A stretch of 64,000 nt of DNA from the human T2T-CHM13v2.0 reference genome, Homo sapiens. A model generated the notes under the pieces. It was not told the origin of the DNA. It did no database searches and saw only the letters and a list, made by a program, of their open reading frames with translations. The position numbers and the translations under genes were made by a program. The stretch lies in the NCBI RefSeq assembly GCF_009914755.1, contig NC_060926.1; one strand, given 5' to 3'. Positions 1,291 through 40,330 of this stretch are shown piece after piece (position 1 is the stretch's first letter; each line of letters begins with the position of its first letter).

Positions 1291-2723
1291 CAAGTGAATA
1301 TTGACCTATTTAATCATTTAACAGGGAGGTGCACTCTTAGCTGGAGACAGGATGAGGAGACTGGCACTGATTCCTGCCTTAGGTAGGCATGGCAGTTTTC
1401 TGGGATGAAAAGGTAAAGAACAGAAGCACAGGGAACATTCTCTGGAAAGAAAACTGTTACGATATGTTTGTTCTTGAGGGACTCAAAATAGAAAATCCCT
1501 TTTCCTTTAAGAACACTTGCTGGAGGGGGTTGGGGGAGAGATAAAATTAAACATTGGCACAATGGTGCTGGAAGCCACTTTAGGAATAACTTCTATAACC
1601 TTTTTAGTAATTTTCCATGCTCCGGACAAAAAATTTTCTGTAACGTTCAGTTCTAAAAACAAATTGTCCTTTTTCTAAGAACTATGCAACATGCTCATTT
1701 CCACCTTTTTCCTTTCCTAATTTTAGAACAAAGCAAGCTGTTATTAGGTTGTCTTTTTGTATTTATCATGTAAAAAACTGCTGAAGGCTTTCTTGAAAAC
1801 TGAAATAAAAGAAATGTGGTATATTGTTTTCTTTTTCATTTTCCTTTTTCTTTTTTTGGTATGTGCATGTAAAGGTAAACATTTCAAATTGCCACAATAT
1901 AATTTAATTCCTCTCAAAGTCTGACAACGCCTTAATAACAACACATTATTCAAGGGCCTGTTTAAGGTTCCTGCCTCCATTTAACTTTTCATCTAAGTAT
2001 TTATCTATTGTACTTTATCCCAGATCCTATGATAATAAAAAATACACATCACTTTGCTTCTGATCTGTTAGGAACATGCTTCTTTCTATAAAGCCAGGAA
2101 AAGAGATTTTCTATTTTCACCTCCAGTCTGACACTCAAGACTCCAGACCCTATTCGGTACGACTGTCACTTCTGGTAAAGTACACTTGAACAAAGATTTA
2201 AAGCCAAATACTTTTTTAAATTATGTAGATTTCTGTTGGAGGAATAGACTTCTTATTCCTAAAAAATATATAGAAAGCATGAATATTAATTCAGAGATGA
2301 GTATGTTCTATTTCTAATAGGGCATGTTTTTGGTACTACCAGATGTTAGCATATTCTTAATTCAAATCATCAGGTTCAGTTACATCACCAGGAAGGGCTG
2401 CTGTATTCTTCCTGTATTTGAGCTATTAATAAAATATGTTCTTAATTTTAAAAATTGCTTGGCTTGGGTGTGGGGCATTACTGTGGGGAGTTGAAAATAC
2501 AGGAAAGCAAAGCAACATATTTGGACCACTGAGGTTTTCTAAGAAACACACTAAAATAAATTTCATATAATGTTAGAGCCATTTTCCCTTTAAACTCTAT
2601 GTTGTCTGTGATACAATACTGATTTAAATCTACTCATTAATCCTGATAGTGGCATTTTAATTAAAGGTATATAACAGGTTAATAAACCCAACATCATTTT
2701 AAATCCCTGAAAGAAAAAGAGAA

Positions 2724-27440: not shown

Positions 27441-28194
27441 AAGAGAACCAGGATCTCTTGCTCTGAAATGATTCGGGTTAAGGTTGTGCCATAGTCAGCC
27501 CAAGCCAATTACTTCCCTAGATTTCTCCAGTTCAGAGCCAGTCACTCTGCGTGCTCCTGCATCACTTCATCTAACTGAGATCAGGTTACACTGGGGAGCT
27601 TCAAGGTCACTGGAGTTCAGCCTTTGGAGTATGTGCAGATGCAGGGAGGGGCATTTCCACTTCAGGTCCTCAGTGGCTTATATTGCCTTAAGGCTTGCCC
27701 GTCACACTGTGGTATTGAGAGCAGTTGAGAGAGAGACGTCAGCACCTCTCCTACTTACCCCTCCCACTGTCTTCCTGAGCTATTGCTCAGTGTTATATGT
27801 GGGATCCTCAAAACCAAGGGGTCAGAATTCTCTTTTTACCCTAGCAATGGTTAAAACTATAAATGTCTTTACTGTTTAATTCCTTTTCTACCTGGGTTAG
27901 AAACACTACATCCTCTTTCCCATGCCCTGCCTTTCTTATTTCTAGCCTCTTTCACTAATAGAAAATACAGATAGTCTTCATTTAGATGCTGGAATGTGTT
28001 TCTAGAGTTGGGAACATCTACTGATCAATATGGGGGAAAGTCCTTCACAGCAGAGTTCCTATTACATTTCCAACAACATTTAGTACTTATTGATATGCAA
28101 TTAACGTAGAATTAAGGGTTTGTTAAGTCATGTCTTCTATCTTCCTCTCATCTAAAAAAAACTGCTCTAATAGTGGATTTTGATTGAAACAAGG

Positions 28195-28875
28195 CAGTGG
28201 TTCTTAATGGAGGTACTATTGCCACCAGAGAACCATTTAGATATGTAGAGGGATGACTTAGAATCATAATGATGGAATGACACTACTGACATGTATGGAG
28301 GTATGCACCAGGGTTGCTAGGTGGGCAACAGTGAACAGGAGAGTCTCAAATAAGTAATAGTCTGCTTGCAATTAACTGGGCTTGGATGCTCACTCTCCTT
28401 GATATATAGACACAGAGTATTATTTGCATGTTCCTAACACACAATGAATATTTCAGAAATGGAATTGATGAGGTGAAAGGAAAATCGGACTTTGTTTTAC
28501 TTAGAATATTAGTAAGTGTTGTTCACCATTTAAGAACACCACAGCACTCATGTTAACACCAAAGCAACCCACTGTCAGCATTCCCATGGATCCATGCATA
28601 GGCACAAGCATCTGTCAGATTCTGTTTTCTATCGTGATTGTGACCTAGCAGATATCTATTGAAATATAAAAATTGAACATATGTATATATACGATTTTTA
28701 TTATAAAATACATATCCTTTATTTCTTTATAATATTATACTTAGAGTATTATATTGATTTATGAAATTATATATATGGAAAATGGCTTATAGATTTTATT
28801 TCAGGATAATCTCAGGGGCATCACAAAATATTATAAAAGAACATCTTTGGGTGAGATAAGGCTAAAAACCCTTTG
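28195..28875. mobile_element. MER20B (hAT-Charlie)
   Basis: 'cagtggttcttaa' start; 'actttgttttacttagaatattagtaagtgttgttcaccattt', 'tttcaggataatctcaggggcatcacaaaatatt'. Confidence 0.85.
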
Positions 28876-29119
28876 TCTAGAGAATAATCCTTAGCCGCCC
28901 AACCAGCTCCTCAGCCTAATGAGTAGTTAAGTGTGCACCTTGACCTCCAGCTGGGTTCTTGAACTGGAAAAATAATCCAACATTTGTTCATCCTTTGGAA
29001 AACGAACTATTTGCCAAGAATCAGAAAACCATCACCAGAAAAAGGATAGTAATAGTGTATTCTCTCTTTTCTCTCTCTAGCTCCCTCTCTCTCTCTCTGT
29101 ATCACTGTCCCCTCCACAC

Positions 29120-29435
29120 TCACCCCGCCCCCACACATGCATCCCTCTCTCTGGCAAACAAAGAAACTGCAAACAAAGGAATAACTTGGCAAGTGCTGCT
29201 CTGTTTGAGAAAAACGAAGGGAGAGTTGCCCAGGCTAACTGAGTTCTCTCCACACCAACCAATCTTTTTGTTTTTCTCTCTCCATAAGATGTCTTTACGC
29301 TTTTCCACATTGGCTTAACCTCTACTTGTTGTCTGTGATTTTGCCCAAGTCCTGCGCTCACTATAAAGCCCTTCTTGGAAAGCAGGAGCCATGGACAATT
29401 ATGCTCCTTTGAACTTCTCAGTTCCTTTGAACTCG
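29120..29435 (+). promoter_or_regulatory. Candidate promoter/enhancer motif cluster
   Basis: GC box 29123-29131, GCAAACA x2, CCAAT 29259, MRE-like TGCGCTC 29353, TATAAAG 29362, STAT site TTCTTGGAA 29372, CCTTTGAAC x2 (29406, 29424); motif evidence only. Confidence 0.35.
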
Positions 29436-30259
29436 TCTCTCCCTCTCCCCTTAGAGCTTATCTTCTCAGCTCGATTCTAAGCTGTTTAAAGCAAGGAATG
29501 TGTTTATGTTCCGTTATAGCTTTTAAAATGTCTACCACGTAGTGGCATTTAGGAATTATTTGCTTTGTATTGTATTTTGAAGTCAACTAGTGTGATGCCT
29601 CCAGCTTTGTTCTTTTTGCTCAATATAGCTTTGGCTATTCCAGGTCTTTTGTGGTACCATACAAATTTTAGGATTTTTGAACATATATTTCCATGAAGAA
29701 TGTCATTGGTATTTTGATAGGGATGGTATTAAATCTGTAGATTGTTTTTGGGTAGTATGGACATTTTAATGATTTAATTCTTTCAATCCATGAACACAGA
29801 AAACCTTTTCACTGATTTATGTCTTCTTTAATTTCTTTCATCAATGTTTTATGGTTTTTGTTGTAGAGACCTTTTATCTCCTTGGTAAAGTTTATTCCTA
29901 ATTTTTTTGTAGCTATTGTAAATAAGACTTTTAAAATTTCTTTTTCAGAGAGTTTCCTCTTGATGTGTAAAAACATTTCTAAGTTTTGTATGCTGATTTG
30001 GTATCCTGAAACTTTATTGAGTTTATTATCTTGATCAAAAGAATAAAGCTGAAGGCATCACACTTCCTGACTTCAAAATATACTACAAAGCTATAGTAAC
30101 CAAAACAGTATGATGCTGGCATAAAAACAGACACGTAGACTAAAGGATCAATAGAAAGCCCATAAATAAACTCATGCATCTACATCCAAATCATTTTTGA
30201 CAAAGGTGCCAAGAATACACAATGAAGAAAGGACAGTCTCTTTAATAAATGGTTGTGAG

Positions 30260-30955
30260 CCAGTTAGAATGGTGATCATTAAAAAGTCAGGAAACAACAG
30301 GTGCTGGAGAGGATGTGGAGAAATAGGAACACTTTGACACTGTTGGTGGGACTGTAAACTAGTTCAACCATTGTGGAAGTCAGTGTAGCAATTCTTCAAG
30401 GATCTTGAACTAGAAATACCATTTGACCCAGCCATCCCATTAGTGGGTATATACCCAAAGGATTATAAATCATGCTGCTATAAAGACACATGTACACGTA
30501 TGTTTATTGTGGCACTATTCACAATAGCAAAGACTTGGAACCAACCCAAATGTCCATCAATGATAGACTGGATTAAGAAAATGTGGCTCATATACACCAT
30601 GGAATACCATGAAGCCATAAAAAAGGATGAGTTCATGTCCTCTGTAGGGACATGGATGAAGCTGGAAACCATCATTCTCAGCAAACTAACGCAAGGACAG
30701 AAAACCAAACACCACATGTTCTTATTCATAACTGGGAATTGAACAATGAGAATACTTGGACACAGGAAGGGGAACATCACACACCGGGGCCTATTGTGGG
30801 GTGGGGGAGGGGGGAGGGATAGCATTAGGAGATATACCTAATGTAAATGAGGAGTTAATGGGTGGAGCACACCAACATGGCACATATATACATATGTAAC
30901 AAACCTGCACATTGTGCACATGTACCCTAAAACTTAAAGTATAATTAAAAATATA
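30260..30955 (+). mobile_element. L1PA3-5-like 3' fragment with 16-bp TSD; carries ORF2p C-terminus (ORF 30443-30742)
   Basis: TSD aataaatggttgtgag at 30244-30259 and 30956-30971; translation 'YPKDYKSCCYKDTCTRMFIVALFTIAKTWNQPKCPS'. Confidence 0.97.
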
Positions 30956-31614
30956 AATAAATGGTTGTGAGAAAACTGGACATCATATGCAGAAGAATGA
31001 AATTAGACCCTTGTCTCACACCATATACAAAAGTTAACTTAGAATGGATTAAAGACTTAAATTTAAGAGCCAAAACTATAAACTTCTAGAATAAAACCTG
31101 TGAATATGGGCAACAACTTTGTGGATAAGACCTTAAAATCATAGGCAACAAAAGTGAAAATAAACAAACAGAATTACATCAAACTGAAAAAAAAAAAGTA
31201 TGCACAGCAAAAAAAAAAAAAATCAGTAGAGTGAAGAGACAACCTACAGAATGAGAGAAAATACATACATACATACATACCTCATAAAATACAAATTGCA
31301 TACATCAGATAAGGGGCTATTATCCAAAATATACAAAGAACCAAAACTACTCTATAACAAGGAAACAAATAACTCTATTAAAAAATAGGCAGAGAACTTG
31401 AAGAGACAGTTCTCAAAAGACATACAAATGGCCAACAGATATATGAAAAAGTGATCAACATTTCTAAGCATCAGAGAAATGAAAATAAAAATCATAATGA
31501 GATATCATTTTACCACTGTTAGAATGGCTATTATCAAAATGATGAAAGATAACAAGTAAAGATGTGGCTAAAAGGAAACCCGTATACACTGTTATTATTA
31601 GTGTAAATTAGTTA

Positions 31615-31793
<179 letters not shown>

Positions 31794-31962
31794 GAATTAT
31801 TACGTAATCCAGCAATGCCACTACTAGTTGTATACCCAAATGAATTGATATCAGTATGTTGAAAAGATATCTACTCTCCCATGTTCATTTCAGTCCTATT
31901 TACAATATCCAAGACATGGAAACAACCTAAGTATCCAACAATGGATGATTAGATTTTAAAAT

Positions 31963-31965
<3 letters not shown>

Positions 31966-32002
<37 letters not shown>

Positions 32003-32060
32003 TGTGTATAGATAGATACATAGAGAGAGAGAGATAGATAGACAGATAGATAGATAGAGA
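31966..32060. repeat. (TG)n followed by (GATA)n/(GA)n
   Basis: Directly visible. Confidence 0.95.
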
Positions 32061-32873
32061 GTATTCAGCCATTAAAAACAAAAACAGGAAATTCTTTCAT
32101 TTGCAACAACATGGATGAACCAAGAGGAGACTATGTTAAGTGAAATAGTGTCACAGAGAGACAGGGACAAAGAGACAAATAATGTATGATCTCAGTCATA
32201 CTTGATATCTGGAAGAGTTGACCTTATACAAGTAGAGAATAGAATGGTGGTTACTAGAGTCTGAGTGAGGTGTGGGGGAGGGTGACTGGGGAAAGAAGAG
32301 CTGTTGGTTTGTGAGTACAAAGTTACAATTGGGAGAAATAAGTTTTGAAGATCTTTTTGCACATTAGAGGGAATATAGTGATTAATAACATACTGTATAT
32401 TTTAAAATAGCTAAAAGAAAGGATTCTAAATGTTCTCACCACAAAGAAATGATAAATGTTTGAGATGCCAAATATGTTAATTATCCTGATTTGATTATTA
32501 AAAAAGTGTATCTGCATTGAAATGCATTGTACCCCATAAGTATATACAATTATTTGTCAATTAAAAATAAATTCTTAAAAAGTTATCTGCTGATAAAGAA
32601 GTTGCAGTTCTAACATTTACCCCAATCAACACTTTTCTTATAAACAGATTCCCAATTCCTATTCCCAGATGTGCCTAGCAGTGTTTCTGATATCTGTTAC
32701 TCTTAGGAGCACTGACCAGCTTCAGAGAAGGCAACTGCCTCTGTGGACCCAGGGAAGGAACAAGGGACTTGGAATGATTAAGAGCGGTAAGCTGTATGTT
32801 TCACACTGAGACAGAACATCAACACATAGCATCCCTAGGTTCTGAAATAGCCCTCACATACTCAGGTGTCTAT

Positions 32874-33278
32874 AGGGCGATAATATATTCCAATTTGTCT
32901 GGAACTGTCCCGGTTTTTCTCTTTTGTCTCAACGTGATTAGTTACAAAGACTTTCATGCTCAACATTGTCAGGTGTGGACATGACACATTGCTCCTGATG
33001 GAGGGGCTCCAGGCAGGCACCCCACATGGGTGAGGCTGGCAGGTGAGGGCTGTGGAGCTCTGGAGAGAGCATGGCAGGTCCAAAGAGGTTCCTGTCTATG
33101 ATTGCTACATGCAATTGTTGGGCCCGATGTTGTGAGATCTTTTTATGTTTTCAGAGAAGTCAAAAATTACACCTTCAAGTGTTGGGAACTAATTCTGTTA
33201 AAAGACTATTGTTTTGATTAAAAAAATTAAAAACTGTGAGGATCAGCTTTGGCTTAAAGGTGCTGGTTTAAAACTGTT
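32874..33278. mobile_element. hAT fragments: MER94/Blackjack-like end (about 32874-32920) and MER102-like (about 33000-33278)
   Basis: 'agggcgataatatattccaatttgtctggaactgtcccggtttt'; 'gggcccgatgttgtgagatctt...tcagagaagtc...gtgttgggaactaattc'. Confidence 0.6.
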
Positions 33279-33284
33279 CAGTAG

Positions 33285-33505
33285 AAAAATGAGATGACTA
33301 TACTTGACAATAATTGATTGTATTATTTTGAAATAGCTAGAAGACTTGGAATGTTCCCAGCACAAAAAAAAATGATAAATGTTTGAGGTGGTGAATATCC
33401 CAATTACCTAGCTTTGATCATTACACATTGTATGCTTTTATGAAAATGTCATATGCACCCCACAAATGTATACAATGATTAAATCCATATAAATTAAAAA
33501 TAAAT
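33285..33505 (+). mobile_element. L1MA5/6-like 3' terminus
   Basis: 'aaatgataaatgtttgaggtggtgaatatcccaattacc...gatcattacacattgtatgc'. Confidence 0.88.
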
Positions 33506-34749
33506 TTCAAAAATACCTTTTAAAAAGGTATTCTCTGTAAGGGACTACCTGGATCCTGGTCCTTCTACCCCTGAAGATGTCTCTCTATGAGCTTGGTTCA
33601 TTTTATTAAGGAAAAAATTAGGATTGGGGGTGGGTAAGAGGGTCTAAATCTTGGCTTTATTACTCACTAGCAGTGTAACCTCAGAAAAACAGTCACAAAC
33701 TTATGCTGTCTCATCTATAAAATAATAAACATGGGCTAGATGCCACCTAGATGCCTCTAAGCTCTAAGAGTCTGTAATTCTTTCATTCTGACCTTAACTC
33801 TTGCTTTTGTTTTGTCTAACACATTCATCATCCACGCTGAGAATCCTAAAAGGGTGTTAGTTATATTTTCTGTTCCTTAAAAATGAAATTTGTTCTCCTA
33901 TTCATTTCTCAGGTGTCTGGCTCCTAATAGATGTACTACTAATACTGATTACCAATAATTTTAGTACTGAGTAGTACTAAAATATCACCCTAAAGCAGAA
34001 TATATAACTCTATTAATTTTTAACCCAATAATTGAATGTCCTTCCCTTTGTATGTATTATTACTATTATTACAAATTACACATAGGCGAAAATTTGAAGA
34101 AAACATAACAACTTTTTACTGGATTTGTGTTAGCTAGTGAGATTATGGACTTTTCTTTCTACTTATCTGTTTTTCTAGTTTTTGGATTTTTTTTAATGTG
34201 ATTACATTGCTTTAATAGTAAAATTATTAAAATACTATTTTTAATAATAAAAATAATATATAAATGATCATCACAGATAAGTAAATAGAAAAAGTACCAT
34301 AAAGGACATGCAGCAAACTACAAATTCTAGTTACCTTGTTTGAGAGAAATGAGATTTAGGAGGGAGATATGAGCATGATAATTTAGTTCCCTACATACTT
34401 TTGTATTATTTGAAATTTTTATACAGAACATTTATTCATGCATTATTTATGAACTTAAAATGAATTAATCAAATTTTAAAATGAATTATTTACCTTGCGT
34501 TTAGAGGAACTGAGTCTTTCTTGATTGTAGATTGCTTTGTCAGTTTCCTGCCAAACAGAACCTTATGTGTCGGCCCCAGTTTCTACATCCTATGAAAGAC
34601 AGGCTGGGGAGGGTATGTGACTTGTCCAAGTAGTAAAGAATGTTGGAAACTGTGTCTGGGCTAAAATCCGGTACTTGCCTAAACTGAGTCTGCAGCATTT
34701 TTATTTGGCTTTTTAAAACATCTTTCTGAATTAGCATGCATTTGTGTTT

Positions 34750-35280
34750 TTAAAATCTTTGATTCCTTTCTGTCCTGAAGTCTACAAATCTTCCTCTAAT
34801 GTGACTGTAAGAGATAAGGGGAAAACATCAATTTCCTAACACTTTTGTTTAGAAAAGAACATACATGATTAAATAGATAATTATTATTATTTTTCCTTTT
34901 GGGGGGAAGGTACAGGGAATATAGATAACAGTTGGATTATTCTTTGAATATACATCATAATTTACTTCCTTACATAAATTCAACAGATCCATGTCTGTGT
35001 GAAGCAAAATACATAGGAAGTTTGTTGCTTGCCATTTGTCTCTCTTCAAGTCCAAAAGAGCCTAGCTGGAATTGCTCCTCCCAAAAGCAAACAGCGTTTT
35101 TTTTTTTCCGAAGCAGTCTGTTTCTTGCACAAATCTTTCCAAAAAGAGTCATCTATTGTTTCTTCCCTTGAAAGTTACAAAAGCATCTTTCTTAACCGCC
35201 ATATTTTTACCTTCAATGTAGAGCCAAAGATAAATCTTATTTGGAATATAATTTTTTCTTTGAAGACTATGCACTGCATT
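34750..35280 (-). mobile_element. Decayed LINE ORF2 N-terminus (APE endonuclease remnant)
   Basis: Collinear motifs WLYIEGKNMAVKK (35226-35188), FVQET (35133-35119, same frame), WEEQFQLGSF/WT, FLCILLHTDMD, NPTVIYIP. Confidence 0.6.
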
Positions 35281-35299
35281 TAGTCTGGGGAACTTGGAC

Positions 35300-36861
35300 A
35301 CTACCACGACTAAATCATAACTAGAAAGATTTGAAGAGTAGCAAAGATTTCTGGTTTTTTTTTCCTTAAAACAATAATCATGCTTGCATTTCTTTAACTT
35401 TCATCCTCAACATCAGGGCTTTTGGATCTTCAGTTTCTGTGAAACCTGTTGCTCCTCTGTCTACAAATGCAGTTTGGGCTTTGGCTTTTGCCTAGGTGAA
35501 ACTACTGATAAATATGTATCTAGTATTTGTTCATGGGAAGTTTCAATCTGCCCCTTGATTTATTTCCCTTGAAAACATCCTTCATCCTTCCCCTTATGCA
35601 ATCAGCCTTCACTAACACAATCCCACCTGGGCCTCCCAGAGACGTGGGACCCACATGTTTGACGGGTGAAGGCCTCTCCTGCCAATTTCCTGTGGCTACT
35701 TCTCTCCTTCCTCTCATTGTTCCTTTCTTCTCTTCCTTGTTCCTCCTCCTCCAGCTTCTACATCGAATCATCTCCAACGCTGCCTTCTTTTCTCATGTAC
35801 TTTCATGGGACTGCTTCATTATCTGGAACTGAATTCTCTGCCTGCTCTGTTTAAACTTGTTTTGAGTCTGGGACAGGTGAGGATGCCTCCAGCTCCTTAT
35901 CCTCTTCTTCTTGTCTCCAGCCCCAGGGCAAATGCTTCTCTTCTTTGCAAAGGTTGCACCATCCCCTCTGCCCACAATTGCTACCTTTGTGTTCAGAATC
36001 CAAGCACCTGAAACATCAGAGCAGGCTGCATGCCATGCTAATTTTGCCTGTGTGGATTAAGACATTATAATGATCCTGCGGCCGTGCCCTGTGACCTCCA
36101 CAGCCAAGGTTCTGCTCTGAAGCCATGGTCCAGTGGCATCAGAATAGCCCTACTTAAGAATAGGACACCAAAGGCATTTATAAACCCCCTTTCTGGACTC
36201 TACAATCTCTGATTCACATCTGAATTCTTCAGGGAGGAACACATAGCTATCCCTTAAATGTATACACAAAGCACGCTGATAATTAGAGTTTTCACTCTGT
36301 AATTTCAGTATAGGCTAGCGTCAGCTCATTTTGGATCCAATTGTTAAATTTGAAGGAATTTTATGAATCAGTTCATATAATGTTGGTAGCTTGAAATTGG
36401 CCATGGGGGGAGTGTTTACACTATTGAAGTTGGCAATTCCACTAACTAAGCCATTTTTTTTTTTTTTCTCCTGGAGAGACAATTATTAAACATTTACCAG
36501 TAGGCCAACGGCAGGGCTCTGATGAAAACTTGAGTGAAAAAAGAAACAAAGCAAAACAAAAATCACATAAAATGTGACAATTCAACTTTGTGAACATTTT
36601 CTGAGTCTTCTATCCAAACATCTTCAGGGACCTTACGAGACCCTGCTCTTTGGATGGGTTTTTCTTGATTTCTCTTTCTTCCTAATATCTGGTCTCTTCT
36701 GCTTCTAACATTTTAGCAAGAACAAGCACACAACCAAAAATAAAGTTACTAGCGATAGGTATGGAATATTGCCTTCTTTTTTCCATAGTTTATTTTCTAT
36801 TTTGCTTCTTCATCTTAGGGCTTCCATTACAGACAGTGGCTGAGGTTGACTGGGCTGCCAT
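35300..36861 (-). pseudogene. Decayed ZCCHC3-like / Tx1-clade ORF1p with CCHC zinc knuckles and acidic tail, interrupted by MER63A
   Basis: ATG in strong context at 36861 (MAAQST); SNFIFGCVLVLAKMLEAEETRY (36750-36685); DSYVFLPEEFRCESEIVESRKGV (36251-36183); CFRCLDSEHKGSNC-GQRGW-CNLCKEEKHLPWGW (36015-35917); multiple stops and frameshifts. Confidence 0.75.
36306..36510. mobile_element. MER63A (hAT-Blackjack)
   Basis: 'aattgttaaatttgaaggaatttt', 'gttggtagcttgaaattggccatgggggagtgtttacac', 'ttaaacatttaccag'. Confidence 0.88.
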
Positions 36862-37239
36862 AGTGTATCAGGAAAAATGATGTCATTGTCTGTAACTTGC
36901 CTATGACCCTGATTCTGCAGCTTGTCACCTCTCCCTTCAGATCTTCCAGTGTCTAGATGACAGATCTTTTCCCTGGCCATTTTCCAGAATTTCCACAGAA
37001 GCCTCTTCATTGCAATTTCATCACTCATACAGGTCATTTTGGGAGGCCTGGATTGAGCGAGAAATAATTCAAGGTGCTTTGACACCAAGAGATCGTGTCC
37101 TCAAAGAACCTTAATCAGTGGCACAACCAGGACTAGAACCCAGGTCTCCTGAAACCTGAACCTAGTATTCTCACTGACATACAGGCCTGCTTATTTTAAT
37201 GCTGACATACCTGTAATTCATTCTGCTTTAGTTTTCTTA

Positions 37240-37602
37240 AACTTAAACCAGGTGGTGATTAAAACCTTACTCAAAAAGTTCACACAAGAGAAAAGGAAAT
37301 GAGAATTTATTGGTTCACACCTGGACAGTCTTGATTCAAATTCTGAAGTAGCATTATCACAAATCTTTCTCTCCATCCCAAAATCTGCTTTCTTTCCTCC
37401 GCGTGTCCCTTCCTTTCTAACCAGGCTCCTCCTGTGTGATGGTAAACCTAGGAGCATCCAGCTCACATCCTACAGGTTGAGAAAGTCCAATAAAAACAAG
37501 CAAAAGGCTCTGGAAGGGTCTGCTTAGTCTGAAATATTAGGGTGCTGCAATCAAAGGCTGGAAAAGAAATAATGAACCGGCAAACACAACAGATGTCTGA
37601 TA
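37240..37602 (-). mobile_element. MLT1J/I-like MaLR LTR (MIR fragment just left, about 37085-37180)
   Basis: 'gaatttattggttcac', 'accaggctcctcctgtgtgatggtaa...ccagctcacatcc', 'caacagatgtc'. Confidence 0.55.
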
Positions 37603-38417
37603 GAGCCCCTAATGGGGAAGAAAGAAAAGTTACATCTGCCATTTACACTGTCTGTGATTGTGCATGGAGATGGCACTCAACGTGAGGAGTCCCACCATGT
37701 CTTCCAGCTTCCTGGAGCATGGGAAGCCAGACTGATAATTTCAGAGGTGACTCAATCAGCATAGTGAAAGCATTAATGTTGGCAGACAGAAAACTCATAT
37801 TCTCCCAGTTTCCTTGTGTCAGAGAAATCAAAAACAAATGGTAGCTTTCTTAACTCTTGACATTTTAGTTGAAAAATATTTCCTTCCAACTATCCTTTCT
37901 TTTCTTTTAATATCCCATTACCTCATTTTTTAACAATAATTTTGGTGGGAATGGACAAAACACCTGAGAGTGGCTCTAGGCCGACAGGATGATGAAAGAA
38001 ATGACACTGTGGGTCTCTCCTATTCCTAATTTCCATAACTTTTAAGAGCACAGGCTGCTGACACAAAATGATACAAGTAGGAAAGTTGCTTGGAGCACAA
38101 AAGTTCAATGCAACCAAAGACCTGATAGACTACCCCTGGCTCAGCCTGTCCCAAATCAGTATGTTTTCCATAATGTGATCTTTCATTTGGCTTCTTTTCT
38201 CAGTACTGAACTGCTTTCTCCTGTGTAATTTAAGCATCAAATATGTATCATGACCCACCCTGAAGCACTGTCTCCTTGGATGACAAAATAATTTAAAAAT
38301 AAATTGCATTGTAAAGAAAAAATATTGTTAAATAATGGGGTACCCTTGAATAATAGGATACCAAAATGTGGTGTGTACATGTGGAAATGTTATGTCTTAC
38401 TCAACGTGTGTAGAGCA

Positions 38418-38635
38418 CTAGTTTTCCTGAAAAGACTCCAGAATACACTAAATCAGGAACTCTGAGGGTGAAACCCAACACTGTGTGTTTTAACAAGACC
38501 TCTAGCTGATGCAAGCTAAGGTTCCAGACCCACTGGGTTTTATTTTTAACTTTCCTAAGCTTCAATGTCATTGTCTATAACATGTGAGTAGCACCTAATT
38601 TTCAGGGTTTTCATAAAGATTAAATTTGACCAAAA
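38418..38635. mobile_element. MER5A fragment plus MIR fragment
   Basis: 'aactctgagggtgaaacccaacactgtgtgttttaacaag'; 'cttcaatgtcattgtctataa...aagattaaat'. Confidence 0.65.
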
Positions 38636-39602
38636 TCATTATTGTTATTATTAATATTAATAACAAAATAAGAATGCATGTGAACATTTTTTAGATATAC
38701 ATATGATGGCATAAAATGCAATATCTTTCCTTTTTCCATAAAAGAGGCAGTTGCAGGAATTCAACATTGAGTGACAGCATATAATAATCAAATGCTCAAT
38801 GAAAGATGGCCATAAAGTTATCAGTCCAGTCCCTACTCCCTTGGCAACTGTACCTGCTACTACTACTCTTACTAAATTCATTTACTAAATTTACATTTTA
38901 ACAGAGTTAGGTAAAGTAAAATCTTATATTTTAGTTCCAGAAATACTTTTCCCAGAACAAGATAGAGCTTGAATTAAGTACAGCATTATTCTGCTCAGAG
39001 GAAGGATAATGAACAAAAATATTTCATGAATACCTTTTCCCAAATAGACATAATCACATTTCCATTCACTCTTAGGATTCTTTGAATCTAGGAATTAGTT
39101 TCCAATTATCTGTTATCTCCCAATAGAATCCTATAAAATAGATGAAATTCTTCTTGCCACGATTAACTTTCATTTCATCTCAAAATGTAATGGAGAAACT
39201 TTCATTCTAAATTCTTGCTAAATTTATTTTGAGATTTATAGCCCGGGATAAAAGGAATGTGAGAGCCATGGCTCCAGAACGGGGATTGGATCCACATTAG
39301 GTTCCAATTAGACACCTGAAAATTCATCTTTCAGAGATGAAGCATCCTCAGACACCAGCTATTCAGGAGGGAAACCCATTCTTATTTCCCCCCCCTCAGG
39401 AAAGAAATAGAATTTTTAGTTGCTTAGTGATTTGTGAACTCCTGAAAAATTGTAGTGACACCTGAAGAGGACTCAGCTCAGTTCAAGTGACCTCAGCACA
39501 AGGAGCAATGAATTGGGATTTATGCTTTCCTATTCCTTTCATCTCAGACAATTGTGTTTACCTGAAGTACCAAATACCAAACAGTGGAAGCAGAGGGCAG
39601 AG

Positions 39603-40330
39603 CAATGGTTTTCCAGTCAGCTGAGATTCCAGTTTAGCAGGCATAGGGACCTAGTCATCTGCATTTTACCAAGCACCCTCTCTTCCCTAGTGGTTCTAAC
39701 CCAGGTCTGCACATCTCATTTTCAGAAACACTGCTAGAAGGAAAAGACAACAGACTTTTGAATTAGAAAAACCAGAATTGGAAGTTCAGCTCTGCCATTT
39801 GCTAACTGGTAGATTTGGATGGCTTGCTTAGTATCTGAGGTTGTTTCCAGGTCTATAAAATAGAATTAGCATTAACAATGACTTTAGTTGTTGTTCTGAC
39901 AAACATATGAGATAATACATGCCATGTGCCTAGCATATATAATATGTACTCAATAAATACTTGTCTCATTTCAAGAGGCTTTTAGGAATATAAGTTATAG
40001 GAAGTGATGTCAGGAAGACATGAACACACACACACACACACATACCACCTTTCTGTGATTTTTCCAAATTTATAATAAAAATAGATATTCATAACATACT
40101 GCTGCTTACTCTTACTCTTTTACTATTTGTACTATTGTCTTGCATTATTGTGTAATGTTTAAACAATAATGTGTTTATGTGTCTGTGGGCACTGTGAGTC
40201 TTTTCTACACAACCAGCTTGCAAACTTTCAGGTAGCAAGGGCCGTTTGTTGCATTGTCAGAAATATCTGACACACAGTGACAGTTTCCATCACAGCACTA
40301 TGCATGTCAAAGATGTTCAATAAGTATATA
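39603..40330. mobile_element. MER5/MER117-like MITE (39603-39735), MIR (39745-39970, plus), L2 3' end (about 40130-40330, plus)
   Basis: 'catctgcattttaccaagcaccc'; 'cagctctgccatttgctaactg...gtgcctagcatatataatatgtactcaataaat'; 'agatgttcaataagtat'. Confidence 0.65.

What the first reader, a model, noticed from the sequence alone, without database searches (positions are those of the whole stretch)
35860..36861. ORF1 remnant aligns block by block with ZCCHC3
Seen, compared with human ZCCHC3 as I recall it: SNFIFGCVLVLAKMLEAEETRY vs RDFVVGALILRSIGMDPSDIY (36750-36685); DSYVFLPEEFRCESEIVESRKGV vs DRFGIWTGEYKCEIELRQGEGGV, ungapped (36251-36183); *GYS vs RGYS (36152-36141); C-SLL*-CFRCLDSEHKGSNC-GQRGW-CNLCKEEKHLPWGW vs C-TQDR-CFRCGEEGHLSPYC-RKGIV-CNLCGKRGHAFAQC (36030-35917) with identical linker lengths. 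The TGA before CFRC fits CGA(Arg) CpG decay, and the last Cys is TGG (one change). Established: ZCCHC3 is a single-exon nucleic-acid co-sensor for cGAS/RIG-I and a LINE-1 restriction cofactor. Inference: this locus is a relative of the element from which ZCCHC3 was domesticated, or a lost paralogue. The long acidic tail and downstream ORF2 motifs argue against a simple ZCCHC3 retrocopy.
Basis: partly seen in the sequence, partly recalled or inferred. Interest (0 to 1): 0.85.

Follow-up and report, generated by a model that had tools for sequence, protein, structure and literature searches.

The report
Decayed ZCCHC3-type zinc-knuckle fossil
A short dead remnant of two zinc-knuckle motifs of the kind found in ZCCHC3 and related jumping-gene proteins sits here, but the rest of the proposed ZCCHC3 alignment is not clearly better than chance, and better-preserved fossils of the same family lie elsewhere in the human genome.

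Summary
Partly confirmed.

Only the zinc-knuckle block (36054-35929, minus strand) is statistically real. A family profile gives it 28.1 bits, E 4.8e-7 over 6378 pieces of the window. Its spacing and residues fit the ZCCHC3/LINE-ORF1 family rather than other CCHC proteins.

The upstream blocks are weak:
- Gapped, frameshift-aware tests put them at chance.
- A banded test is suggestive with one profile (P 0.0015-0.019) and not with another.

Other claims fail or cannot be tested:
- No ORF2 is found downstream.
- The 'acidic tail' is a purine-rich tract.
- The CGA-to-TGA idea finds no support in human ZCCHC3, where that codon is AGG.

DNA identity to ZCCHC3 is 45%, so this is not a recent ZCCHC3 retrocopy.

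Best reading: a very old, non-functional fossil of a ZCCHC3-family coding sequence. The human genome holds at least 15 better-preserved relics. Interest is low.

The parts
35929..36054 (-). Fossil of tandem CCHC zinc knuckles. It aligns without gaps to family-profile columns 173-214, that is the end of knuckle 1, knuckle 2, and knuckle 3 as far as its His.
   Evidence: Frameshift-aware alignment, score 47.6. HMMER 28.1 bits, E 4.8e-7 in the window. 121 of 377 tblastn HSPs from family proteins fall in the 35500-35999 bin.
35974..36015 (-). Knuckle 2, CFRCLDSEHKGSNC. All four Zn ligands are present (C-X2-C-X4-H-X4-C).
   Evidence: read directly.
35917..35958 (-). Knuckle 3, CNLCKEEKHLPWGW. The last ligand is Trp (TGG at 35919-35917) where Cys is expected. 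CNLC matches the commonest residues of the family profile at those columns.
   Evidence: (profile emissions N 0.27, L 0.37).
36016..36018 (-). In-frame TGA in the 4-residue linker before knuckle 2.
   Evidence: Human ZCCHC3 has AGG here and the relic L021 has TAA.
36028..36030 (-). A Cys at the position of the last Cys of knuckle 1. The rest of knuckle 1 is not recognisable.
   Evidence: A Cys at a given position has a chance of about 0.034.
36057..36314 (-). It may be a remnant of the second RNA-binding domain, but the register is ambiguous and the support is weak.
   Evidence: Searches are suggestive. Searches show no support.
36340..36507 (.). It is not part of the fossil.
   Evidence: 39 other genomic matches at 70-90% identity. 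Boundaries come from 7 copies.
36685..36750 (-). No support as a remnant of the first RNA-binding domain.

Best explanation
The stretch 36054-35929 (minus strand) is a very old, dead fossil of the C-terminal zinc-knuckle region of a protein of the ZCCHC3 family. That family has two RBD_ZCCHC3 domains followed by three CCHC knuckles.

The same module occurs in more than 1700 representative proteins. A few of these are fused to LINE ORF2 pieces, which fits an ORF1-type retrotransposon protein.

In a living protein each knuckle binds one zinc ion through Cys-Cys-His-Cys and grips single-stranded nucleic acid (established knowledge, not tested here).

Here nothing works:
- a stop codon sits in the linker;
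- the last zinc ligand is Trp;
- knuckle 1 and both RNA-binding domains are eroded or deleted;
- there is no start codon and no downstream ORF2.

Shown: the knuckle pattern, its statistical weight and its preference for this family. Inferred: that it came from a retrotransposon ORF1 copy, or from a very old ZCCHC3-like retrocopy, and decayed neutrally.
For: 1. Statistical weight. HMMER family profile: 28.1 bits, E 4.8e-7 over 6378 window pieces. Scaling the number of pieces to the genome size reported gives about 0.02 per genome (my arithmetic). Frameshift-aware score 47.6 against null maxima of 25.5 (220 tiles) and 33.4 (8000 simulated tiles).

2. Spacing. The alignment over profile columns 173-214 has no gaps. 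Over columns 181-214, 117 of 181 family domains also have no indel. All 30 decoy zf-CCHC loci either needed gaps or aligned over one knuckle only.

3. Family preference. 105 of 211 family proteins match, against 0 of 177,635 PDB sequences and 2 of 30 decoy loci at 10.7 bits or less. ZCCHC3 scores 15.0 bits and the relic L021 17.7 bits in the same format.

4. Family context. 1772 representative proteins match at E <= 0.001. Of 36 scanned, 1 carries Exo_endo_phos and 2 carry zf-RVT beside the module.

5. Bona fide decayed relatives exist in the same genome. 10 loci match ZCCHC3 at E < 0.001. 15 of 21 loci score >= 45.

6. Weak colinear signal upstream with the general profile: P 0.0015-0.019 for the summed blocks.
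Against: - Pfam finds neither RBD_ZCCHC3 domain nor zf-CCHC here.
- The genome-wide searches with ZCCHC3 (27 matches at E <= 10) and with PF23057 and PF23058 do not list this locus.
- The reciprocal search with the 95-residue translation finds nothing significant in the genome.
- Most of the score comes from 6 Cys and 2 His (my estimate from the background frequencies, not separately computed), so residues that mark the family add little.
- Upstream homology fails the gapped tests and the banded test with the ZCCHC3-plus-relic profile (summed-blocks P 0.19-0.45).
- The frameshift-aware extrapolation allows about 0.8 chance hits per genome.
- No ORF2, no other DNA copies and no element ends were found.
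Confidence: 0.65

Rival explanations
1. It is a fossil of some other CCHC-knuckle coding sequence, such as an ancient LTR-retrotransposon or retroviral Gag nucleocapsid, or a retrocopy of another host CCHC gene. The ZCCHC3-like spacing would then be a coincidence.
For: CCHC knuckles are very common in the genome: 2709 first-look candidates for PF00098, of which the 150 scored all passed the cut-off. Most of the block's score is Cys and His. A multi-knuckle host gene locus on chr3 (CNBP from memory) scores 73 on the knuckle columns of my profile, so that score alone does not mark the family.
Against: - 0 of 177,635 PDB sequences reach E <= 10.
- 28 of 30 decoy loci give nothing, and the other 2 give 10.7 bits or less, against 15-21.6 bits for family members.
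- All decoys need gaps or align over one knuckle only.
- No gag or pol domain flanks the block.
- No human gene or repeat is significantly similar to the 95-residue translation.
Confidence: 0.17
2. It is an ordinary processed pseudogene of ZCCHC3 itself, made after the gene existed in mammals.
For: ZCCHC3 is read here as one uninterrupted 403-codon frame. The genome holds many decayed ZCCHC3-like copies that group only with mammalian ZCCHC3.
Against: - Nucleotide identity to the ZCCHC3 knuckles is 57 of 126 (45%), and 36% outside the shared Cys/His codons.
- blastn finds no similarity to the ZCCHC3 locus over the block or its flanks.
- The best protein matches are family members other than the mammalian ZCCHC3 clusters.
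- The ZCCHC3-plus-relic profile scores lower than the general profile, 43.0 against 47.6.
Confidence: 0.08
3. It is a chance pattern in non-coding DNA.
For: The frameshift-aware tail extrapolation gives about 0.8 expected hits per genome. The composition estimate for five Cys and two His is 0.3 per genome. The finding came from a scan of very many windows.
Against: - Within this window the expectation is 1.6e-5 or 2e-7 to 6e-6.
- The HMMER E-value is 4.8e-7 in the window.
- The non-ligand residues also fit, including CNLC.
- The best position in the whole window for family-profile columns 121-143 lies 70 nt from where the anchor predicts it, rank 1 of 127,864.
- Real relics are far more numerous in the genome than the chance expectation.
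Confidence: 0.07

Closest known systems
Human ZCCHC3 (chr20; read here as L009:1012-2220, 403 aa)
   Same: Same knuckle spacing: Cys, 4 residues, CCHC, 5 residues, CCH(C). CFRC and CNLC are identical. 13 of 37 residues match.
   Different: ZCCHC3 is an intact, highly conserved gene: 86-100% identity across eutherian clusters and 71% in opossum. This locus is broken, lacks recognisable RNA-binding domains and knuckle 1, and is only 45% identical in DNA.
ZCCHC3-like proteins of the RBD_ZCCHC3_1st / RBD_ZCCHC3_2nd / zf-CCHC architecture, some next to LINE ORF2 domains (Pfam PF23057, PF23058, PF00098). From memory, these correspond to the 'type I' ORF1p of Tx1, I and Jockey-type LINEs of Khazina & Weichenrieder 2009; I did not see that paper.
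   Same: They are the best matches to the knuckle block (P0159 21.6 bits, P0152, P0076), with the same ungapped spacing in 63 of the 126 domains other than mammalian ZCCHC3.
   Different: Those proteins are intact, and all 36 that I scanned carry at least one RBD_ZCCHC3 domain. Here no RNA-binding domain is detectable. The Tx1 label is not tested: the library carries no names or taxa for these proteins.
Decayed ZCCHC3-like relics elsewhere in the human genome, for example chr4:116582288-116582668 (L021), chr7:146713108 (L016) and chr8:21653429 (L020)
   Same: They are broken by stops and frameshifts. L021 has a stop at the same linker column and is the best relic match to this block (tblastx E 3e-4; 17.7 bits).
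   Different: Those relics keep 100-220 profile columns and score 45-116. This locus keeps 42 secure columns.
Retroviral or ERV Gag nucleocapsid knuckles, and CNBP
   Same: CCHC zinc knuckles in tandem.
   Different: Different linkers and knuckle lengths, so gaps are needed. Their similarity to this block is at or below the threshold.

Membership tests
ZCCHC3 / RBD_ZCCHC3-CCHC family | First RNA-binding domain (PF23057) | tested here: not met
No Pfam hit. This locus is not among the 5 genome matches of PF23057.
ZCCHC3 / RBD_ZCCHC3-CCHC family | Second RNA-binding domain (PF23058) | tested here: inconclusive
   No Pfam hit, and the gapped tests are at chance. The banded test for columns 98-166 gives P 0.0055-0.010 with the general profile and 0.15-0.17 with the ZCCHC3-plus-relic profile. 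Two competing registers exist.
ZCCHC3 / RBD_ZCCHC3-CCHC family | Knuckles 2 and 3 with a 5-residue linker, preceded by a Cys 4 residues upstream | tested here: met
   Ungapped alignment to profile columns 173-214. 117 of 181 family domains have no indel over columns 181-214. The last ligand of knuckle 3 is Trp.
ZCCHC3 / RBD_ZCCHC3-CCHC family | Knuckle 1 (C-X2-C-X4-H-X4-C) | tested here: not met
   Only its last Cys is in register.
ZCCHC3 / RBD_ZCCHC3-CCHC family | Closer to family members than to other CCHC proteins | tested here: met
   105 of 211 family proteins against 0 of 177,635 PDB sequences at the same Z and threshold. 2 of 30 decoy loci match, at 10.7 bits or less.
Non-LTR retrotransposon (LINE) copy | ORF2 (endonuclease or reverse transcriptase) downstream on the same strand | tested here: not met
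   No family at E <= 1 in 28000-40000 or at E <= 10 in 32800-35930, minus frames.
Non-LTR retrotransposon (LINE) copy | Other copies in the genome recognisable at DNA level | tested here: not met
   Only the unrelated repeat at about 36313-36512 has copies. The protein-level search finds none.
Non-LTR retrotransposon (LINE) copy | 3' tail and target-site duplications | not tested
   The element ends are unknown. At this level of decay they cannot be recognised.
Processed pseudogene of ZCCHC3 | DNA similarity to the ZCCHC3 coding sequence and UTRs | tested here: not met
   45% identity over the knuckles. No blastn hit to the ZCCHC3 locus over the block.
Retroviral / LTR-element Gag nucleocapsid | Gag- or Pol-like flanks and nucleocapsid-type knuckle spacing | tested here: not met
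   No Pfam domains in the flanks. ERV-type decoys need gaps and do not match the block.

The most novel reading that the evidence does not exclude
The block is the last trace of an ancient ZCCHC3-family retrotransposon lineage, or of a lost ZCCHC3 paralogue, distinct from the lineage that left the better-preserved human relics. Together with those relics, which group only with mammalian ZCCHC3, it would record a once-active ORF1-bearing element in the ancestors of mammals from which the innate-immune co-sensor ZCCHC3 was domesticated.
Probability: 0.12. Interest if true: 0.5.

Novelty: new member of a known kind. Interest (0 to 1): 0.2.

Why it matters
On its own this locus matters little. It is 42 recognisable codons of a dead zinc-knuckle region in a gene-free stretch of chr2, too short and too decayed for a tree or a dN/dS estimate.

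It is better addressed with other material found along the way:
- at least 15 longer decayed ZCCHC3-like relics in the human genome, which form an exclusive group with mammalian ZCCHC3 (support 0.70);
- a large family of intact relatives, a few of them next to LINE ORF2 domains.

I found no paper stating a LINE-ORF1 origin of ZCCHC3. The library is incomplete and Repbase/Dfam records were not available, so I do not claim the idea is unpublished.

Tried and rejected
- Pfam scans of long read-through frames and of single ORFs gave nothing relevant.
- Pfam scans downstream of three good relics (L021, L016, L023) found no endonuclease or reverse transcriptase, so I could not show that those relics are LINE copies rather than old retrocopies.
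- Reciprocal genome search with the 95-residue translation: only itself is significant.
- Word-indexed protein search with the 46-residue block, longer proteins: no candidate. An earlier try with too high an E-value limit was an input error.
- blastn and tblastx against the relic loci: only the knuckle block matches, to L021 and ZCCHC3.
- A profile sharpened with human relics plus human and opossum ZCCHC3 did not improve detection upstream.
- The spacing argument. Removing the 168-bp repeat makes the distance from block 1 to block 2 about 266 bp, against 261 bp in ZCCHC3 (and my arithmetic). I set this aside because block 1 itself is at chance.
- A count of the exact knuckle spacing across the whole genome, and the earlier notes of this scan, were not available. 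I used composition estimates and decoy loci instead.

Full report
WHAT WAS CHECKED

The window is human chr2:221712001-221776000 and the assembly is held. I read 35600-37200 on the minus strand and listed the stop-to-stop frames.

Blocks 1 and 4 lie in one frame. Block 2 and '*GYS' lie in another.

To avoid relying on recalled sequence, I located the real ZCCHC3 gene with the Pfam models PF23057 and PF23058. I then read its 403-codon frame from locus L009.

THE ZINC-KNUCKLE BLOCK IS REAL

- tblastn with human ZCCHC3 gives only one notable hit in the window, the knuckle block: E 0.014, 35% identity over 37 residues. Block 2 has E 4.3. Block 1 is not reported at its place.
- An exhaustive HMMER search with ZCCHC3 residues 160-403 found 1772 representative proteins at E <= 0.001.
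- From the 181 domains of at least 170 residues among the 150 listed proteins plus the orthologues, I built a 226-column family profile.
- On 86-residue pieces of all six frames, the knuckle-bearing pieces score 25.5-28.1 bits, best E 4.8e-7 for 6378 pieces. The next unrelated piece scores 12.3 bits.
- My own frameshift-aware profile aligner gives 47.6 for an ungapped alignment of 36054-35929 to columns 173-214.
- For that aligner, 220 other tiles of the window have mean 16.7, SD 2.6 and maximum 25.5. 8000 simulated tiles have a maximum of 33.4. The fitted tail gives 1.6e-5 expected hits per window and about 0.8 per genome.
- From the Cys and His frequencies of the window, the fixed ligand pattern is expected 6e-6 times per window and 0.3 per genome. 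With the preceding Cys the figures are 2e-7 and 0.01.

I conclude that this is a true knuckle fossil, not noise. A small chance probability remains at the scale of the whole genome.

WHICH FAMILY

CCHC knuckles are common in the genome: 2709 first-look candidates for PF00098. The raw profile score therefore does not mark the family. A multi-knuckle gene locus on chr3, which I take from memory to be CNBP, scores 73 on the knuckle columns. Three things favour the ZCCHC3 family.

1. The alignment is ungapped. The linkers of 4 and 5 residues are those of ZCCHC3, and 117 of 181 family domains have no indel over columns 181-214. All 30 decoy loci needed gaps or aligned over one knuckle only.

2. phmmer with the 46-residue block, at one fixed database size (Z 177,635) and E <= 10, gives:
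- 105 of 211 family proteins, best E 0.0018;
- 0 of 177,635 distinct PDB sequences;
- 2 of 30 decoy loci cut into 120-residue pieces, both from that chr3 locus, at 10.7 bits or less;
- in the same format, ZCCHC3 at 15.0 bits and the relic L021 at 17.7 bits.
A first version of the decoy test with whole 1000-residue frames was uninformative, because ZCCHC3 itself failed it.

3. CNLC matches the commonest residues of the profile at those columns.

THE UPSTREAM BLOCKS ARE NOT SECURE

- Pfam finds no RBD_ZCCHC3 domain in any frame.
- Local frameshift-aware alignment of profile columns 1-172 against 36055-36900 scores 14.1-19.5. Of 290 null tiles, 82-188 equal or beat it. Its best path lies inside an unrelated repeat.
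- A profile sharpened with 15 human relics plus human and opossum ZCCHC3 does no better: 44-101 of 290 null tiles equal or beat the target.
- In an anchored test I placed random genomic tiles in front of the true knuckle block. The true upstream sequence was never in the upper tail in any of 12 parameter and profile combinations. At best, 91 of 362 null constructs equalled or beat it.

Results for the single blocks:
- Block 1 is matched or beaten by 808 of 127,876 positions. '*GYS' is matched or beaten by 94% of positions.
- Block 2 ranks 24th of 127,864 positions with the general profile and 4th with the sharpened one. The best position in the whole window for the same columns is at 36140, a different register.

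A banded test sums the best ungapped score of seven fixed blocks near the diagonal set by the knuckle anchor, and compares it with all other anchors in the window.
- With the general profile it gives P 0.019 on the raw sequence and 0.0015-0.0027 with the repeat excised.
- With the sharpened profile it gives P 0.19-0.45.

The block maxima behind the general-profile result suggest another colinear reading in the frame of block 2:
- columns 75-97 at 36308;
- columns 98-120 at 36260;
- columns 121-143 at 36140.

My summary: some remnant of the second RNA-binding domain may be present.

- The TGA before CFRC is real (36018-36016). Human ZCCHC3 has AGG at that residue, and L021 has TAA at the same column. 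A CGA ancestor therefore finds no support in the two sequences available.
- The last expected Cys of knuckle 3 is TGG, one change from TGY.
- The 'acidic tail' runs into a purine-rich low-complexity tract at about 35690-35760. Such a tract encodes Glu, Lys, Arg and Gly in any frame.
- No ORF2 domain is found downstream.
- I saw ORF2-like translations at 29.5-31 kb. I name them L1 from memory. The piece at 30188-30967 lies on the plus strand and has thousands of copies, with 39 scored matches at 93-94% identity. It is a young insertion unrelated to the fossil.
- The stretch 36340-36507 is an old interspersed repeat of unknown family.

RELATION TO ZCCHC3 ITSELF

- Nucleotide identity over the 126-nt block is 57 of 126 (45%). 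It is 36% outside the shared Cys/His codons.
- blastn finds nothing between the block or its flanks and the ZCCHC3 locus.
- Neither the genome-wide protein search with ZCCHC3 (27 matches at E <= 10) nor the reciprocal search links the two.
- The block fits the general family profile (47.6) at least as well as the ZCCHC3-plus-relic profile (43.0).
- Its best matches are family members other than the mammalian ZCCHC3 clusters.

So this is neither a recent processed pseudogene of ZCCHC3 nor demonstrably close to ZCCHC3's source.

CONTEXT FOUND ALONG THE WAY

- The ZCCHC3 search found 10 degraded loci at E < 0.001 and 13 at E < 0.01, all with stops or short frames.
- 15 of 21 loci score 45-116 on my aligner, covering up to all 225 columns.
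- In a FastTree tree of 146 sequences, these 15 relics and five mammalian ZCCHC3 clusters form an exclusive clade (support 0.70). The relics fall outside the five-member mammalian group.
- Caveats on that tree: the relics were found with ZCCHC3 as bait, decayed sequences attract each other, and I left out 6 weaker loci and most of the mammalian clusters.
- Of 36 family proteins scanned with Pfam, one has an Exo_endo_phos domain after the module and two have zf-RVT beside it. This fits an ORF1-type retrotransposon protein.
- Three good relics show no ORF2 domain downstream.

LITERATURE

- Goodier et al. 2023 (PMC10351740; passages only) call ZCCHC3 'gag-like' and relate it to yeast Air1/Air2. 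The passages I saw say nothing about a LINE origin.
- Kojima 2018 (PMC5753468; passages only) lists Tx1 among the ten non-LTR clades with traces in the human genome, with MARE6 as its one entry.
- PMC12802575 (passages only) concerns ZCCHC3 binding to L1 RNA, not its origin.
- The searches for ZCCHC3 with ORF1 and retrotransposon, domesticated and non-LTR, Tx1, and paralog with 'transposable element-derived' found no paper on the origin. The ZCCHC3 plus Tx1 search returned 0 papers.
- I read no supplementary files.

VERDICT

This is a real but ordinary fossil: two decayed ZCCHC3-family zinc knuckles, non-functional. The claimed block-by-block alignment is only partly true. This locus gives no leverage on the origin of ZCCHC3.

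Noticed in passing
Elsewhere in the genome: L021 = chr4:116582288-116582668(-); L016 = chr7:146713108-146713413(+); L020 = chr8:21653429-21653566(-); L017 = chr11:10422972-10423232(+); L018 = chr12:67673827-67674252(-); L024 = chr12:79314633-79315064(-); L065 = chr12:21729111-21729536(-); L063 = chr14:22686707-22686916(+); and others: The human genome holds many decayed ZCCHC3-like copies: 10 at E < 0.001, and 15 of 21 loci scoring 45-116 on my aligner. In a tree they form an exclusive clade with mammalian ZCCHC3, support 0.70. They could be copies of ZCCHC3's source element or very old retrocopies. No ORF2 was found downstream of the three I tested.
   Followed up: partly
window 1553-1690 (+), possibly to 1761: A stretch resembling the first ZCCHC3 RNA-binding domain. 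HMMER gives 12.3 bits, E 0.031 over the window pieces. Two colinear tblastn HSPs each have E 0.63. It was the top 'null' tile at 25.5. This is borderline and may be chance. It lies 34 kb from the knuckle fossil, on the other strand.
   Followed up: partly
window 36340-36507: An old interspersed repeat of unknown family, with 39 other genomic matches at 70-90% identity and boundaries taken from 7 copies.
   Followed up: partly
window 30188-30967 (+) and about 29500-29800 (-): Translations that look like L1 ORF2 (named from memory). The plus-strand piece has 9435 first-look candidates and 39 scored matches at 93-94% identity, so it is a young insertion.
   Followed up: partly
window 35690-35760 (-): A purine-rich low-complexity tract that reads as Glu, Lys, Arg and Gly in every frame. 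It explains the 'acidic tail'.
   Followed up: no
window about 37100-37200 (-): A stretch that looks to me like a MIR fragment. This is from memory and no tool was run on it.
   Followed up: no
Protein library (P0119, P0152, P0168): Three of 36 scanned ZCCHC3-like proteins carry LINE ORF2 pieces beside the module (Exo_endo_phos or zf-RVT). Many others have extensions of 400-1200 residues before the module with no significant Pfam domain in most of them.
   Followed up: no
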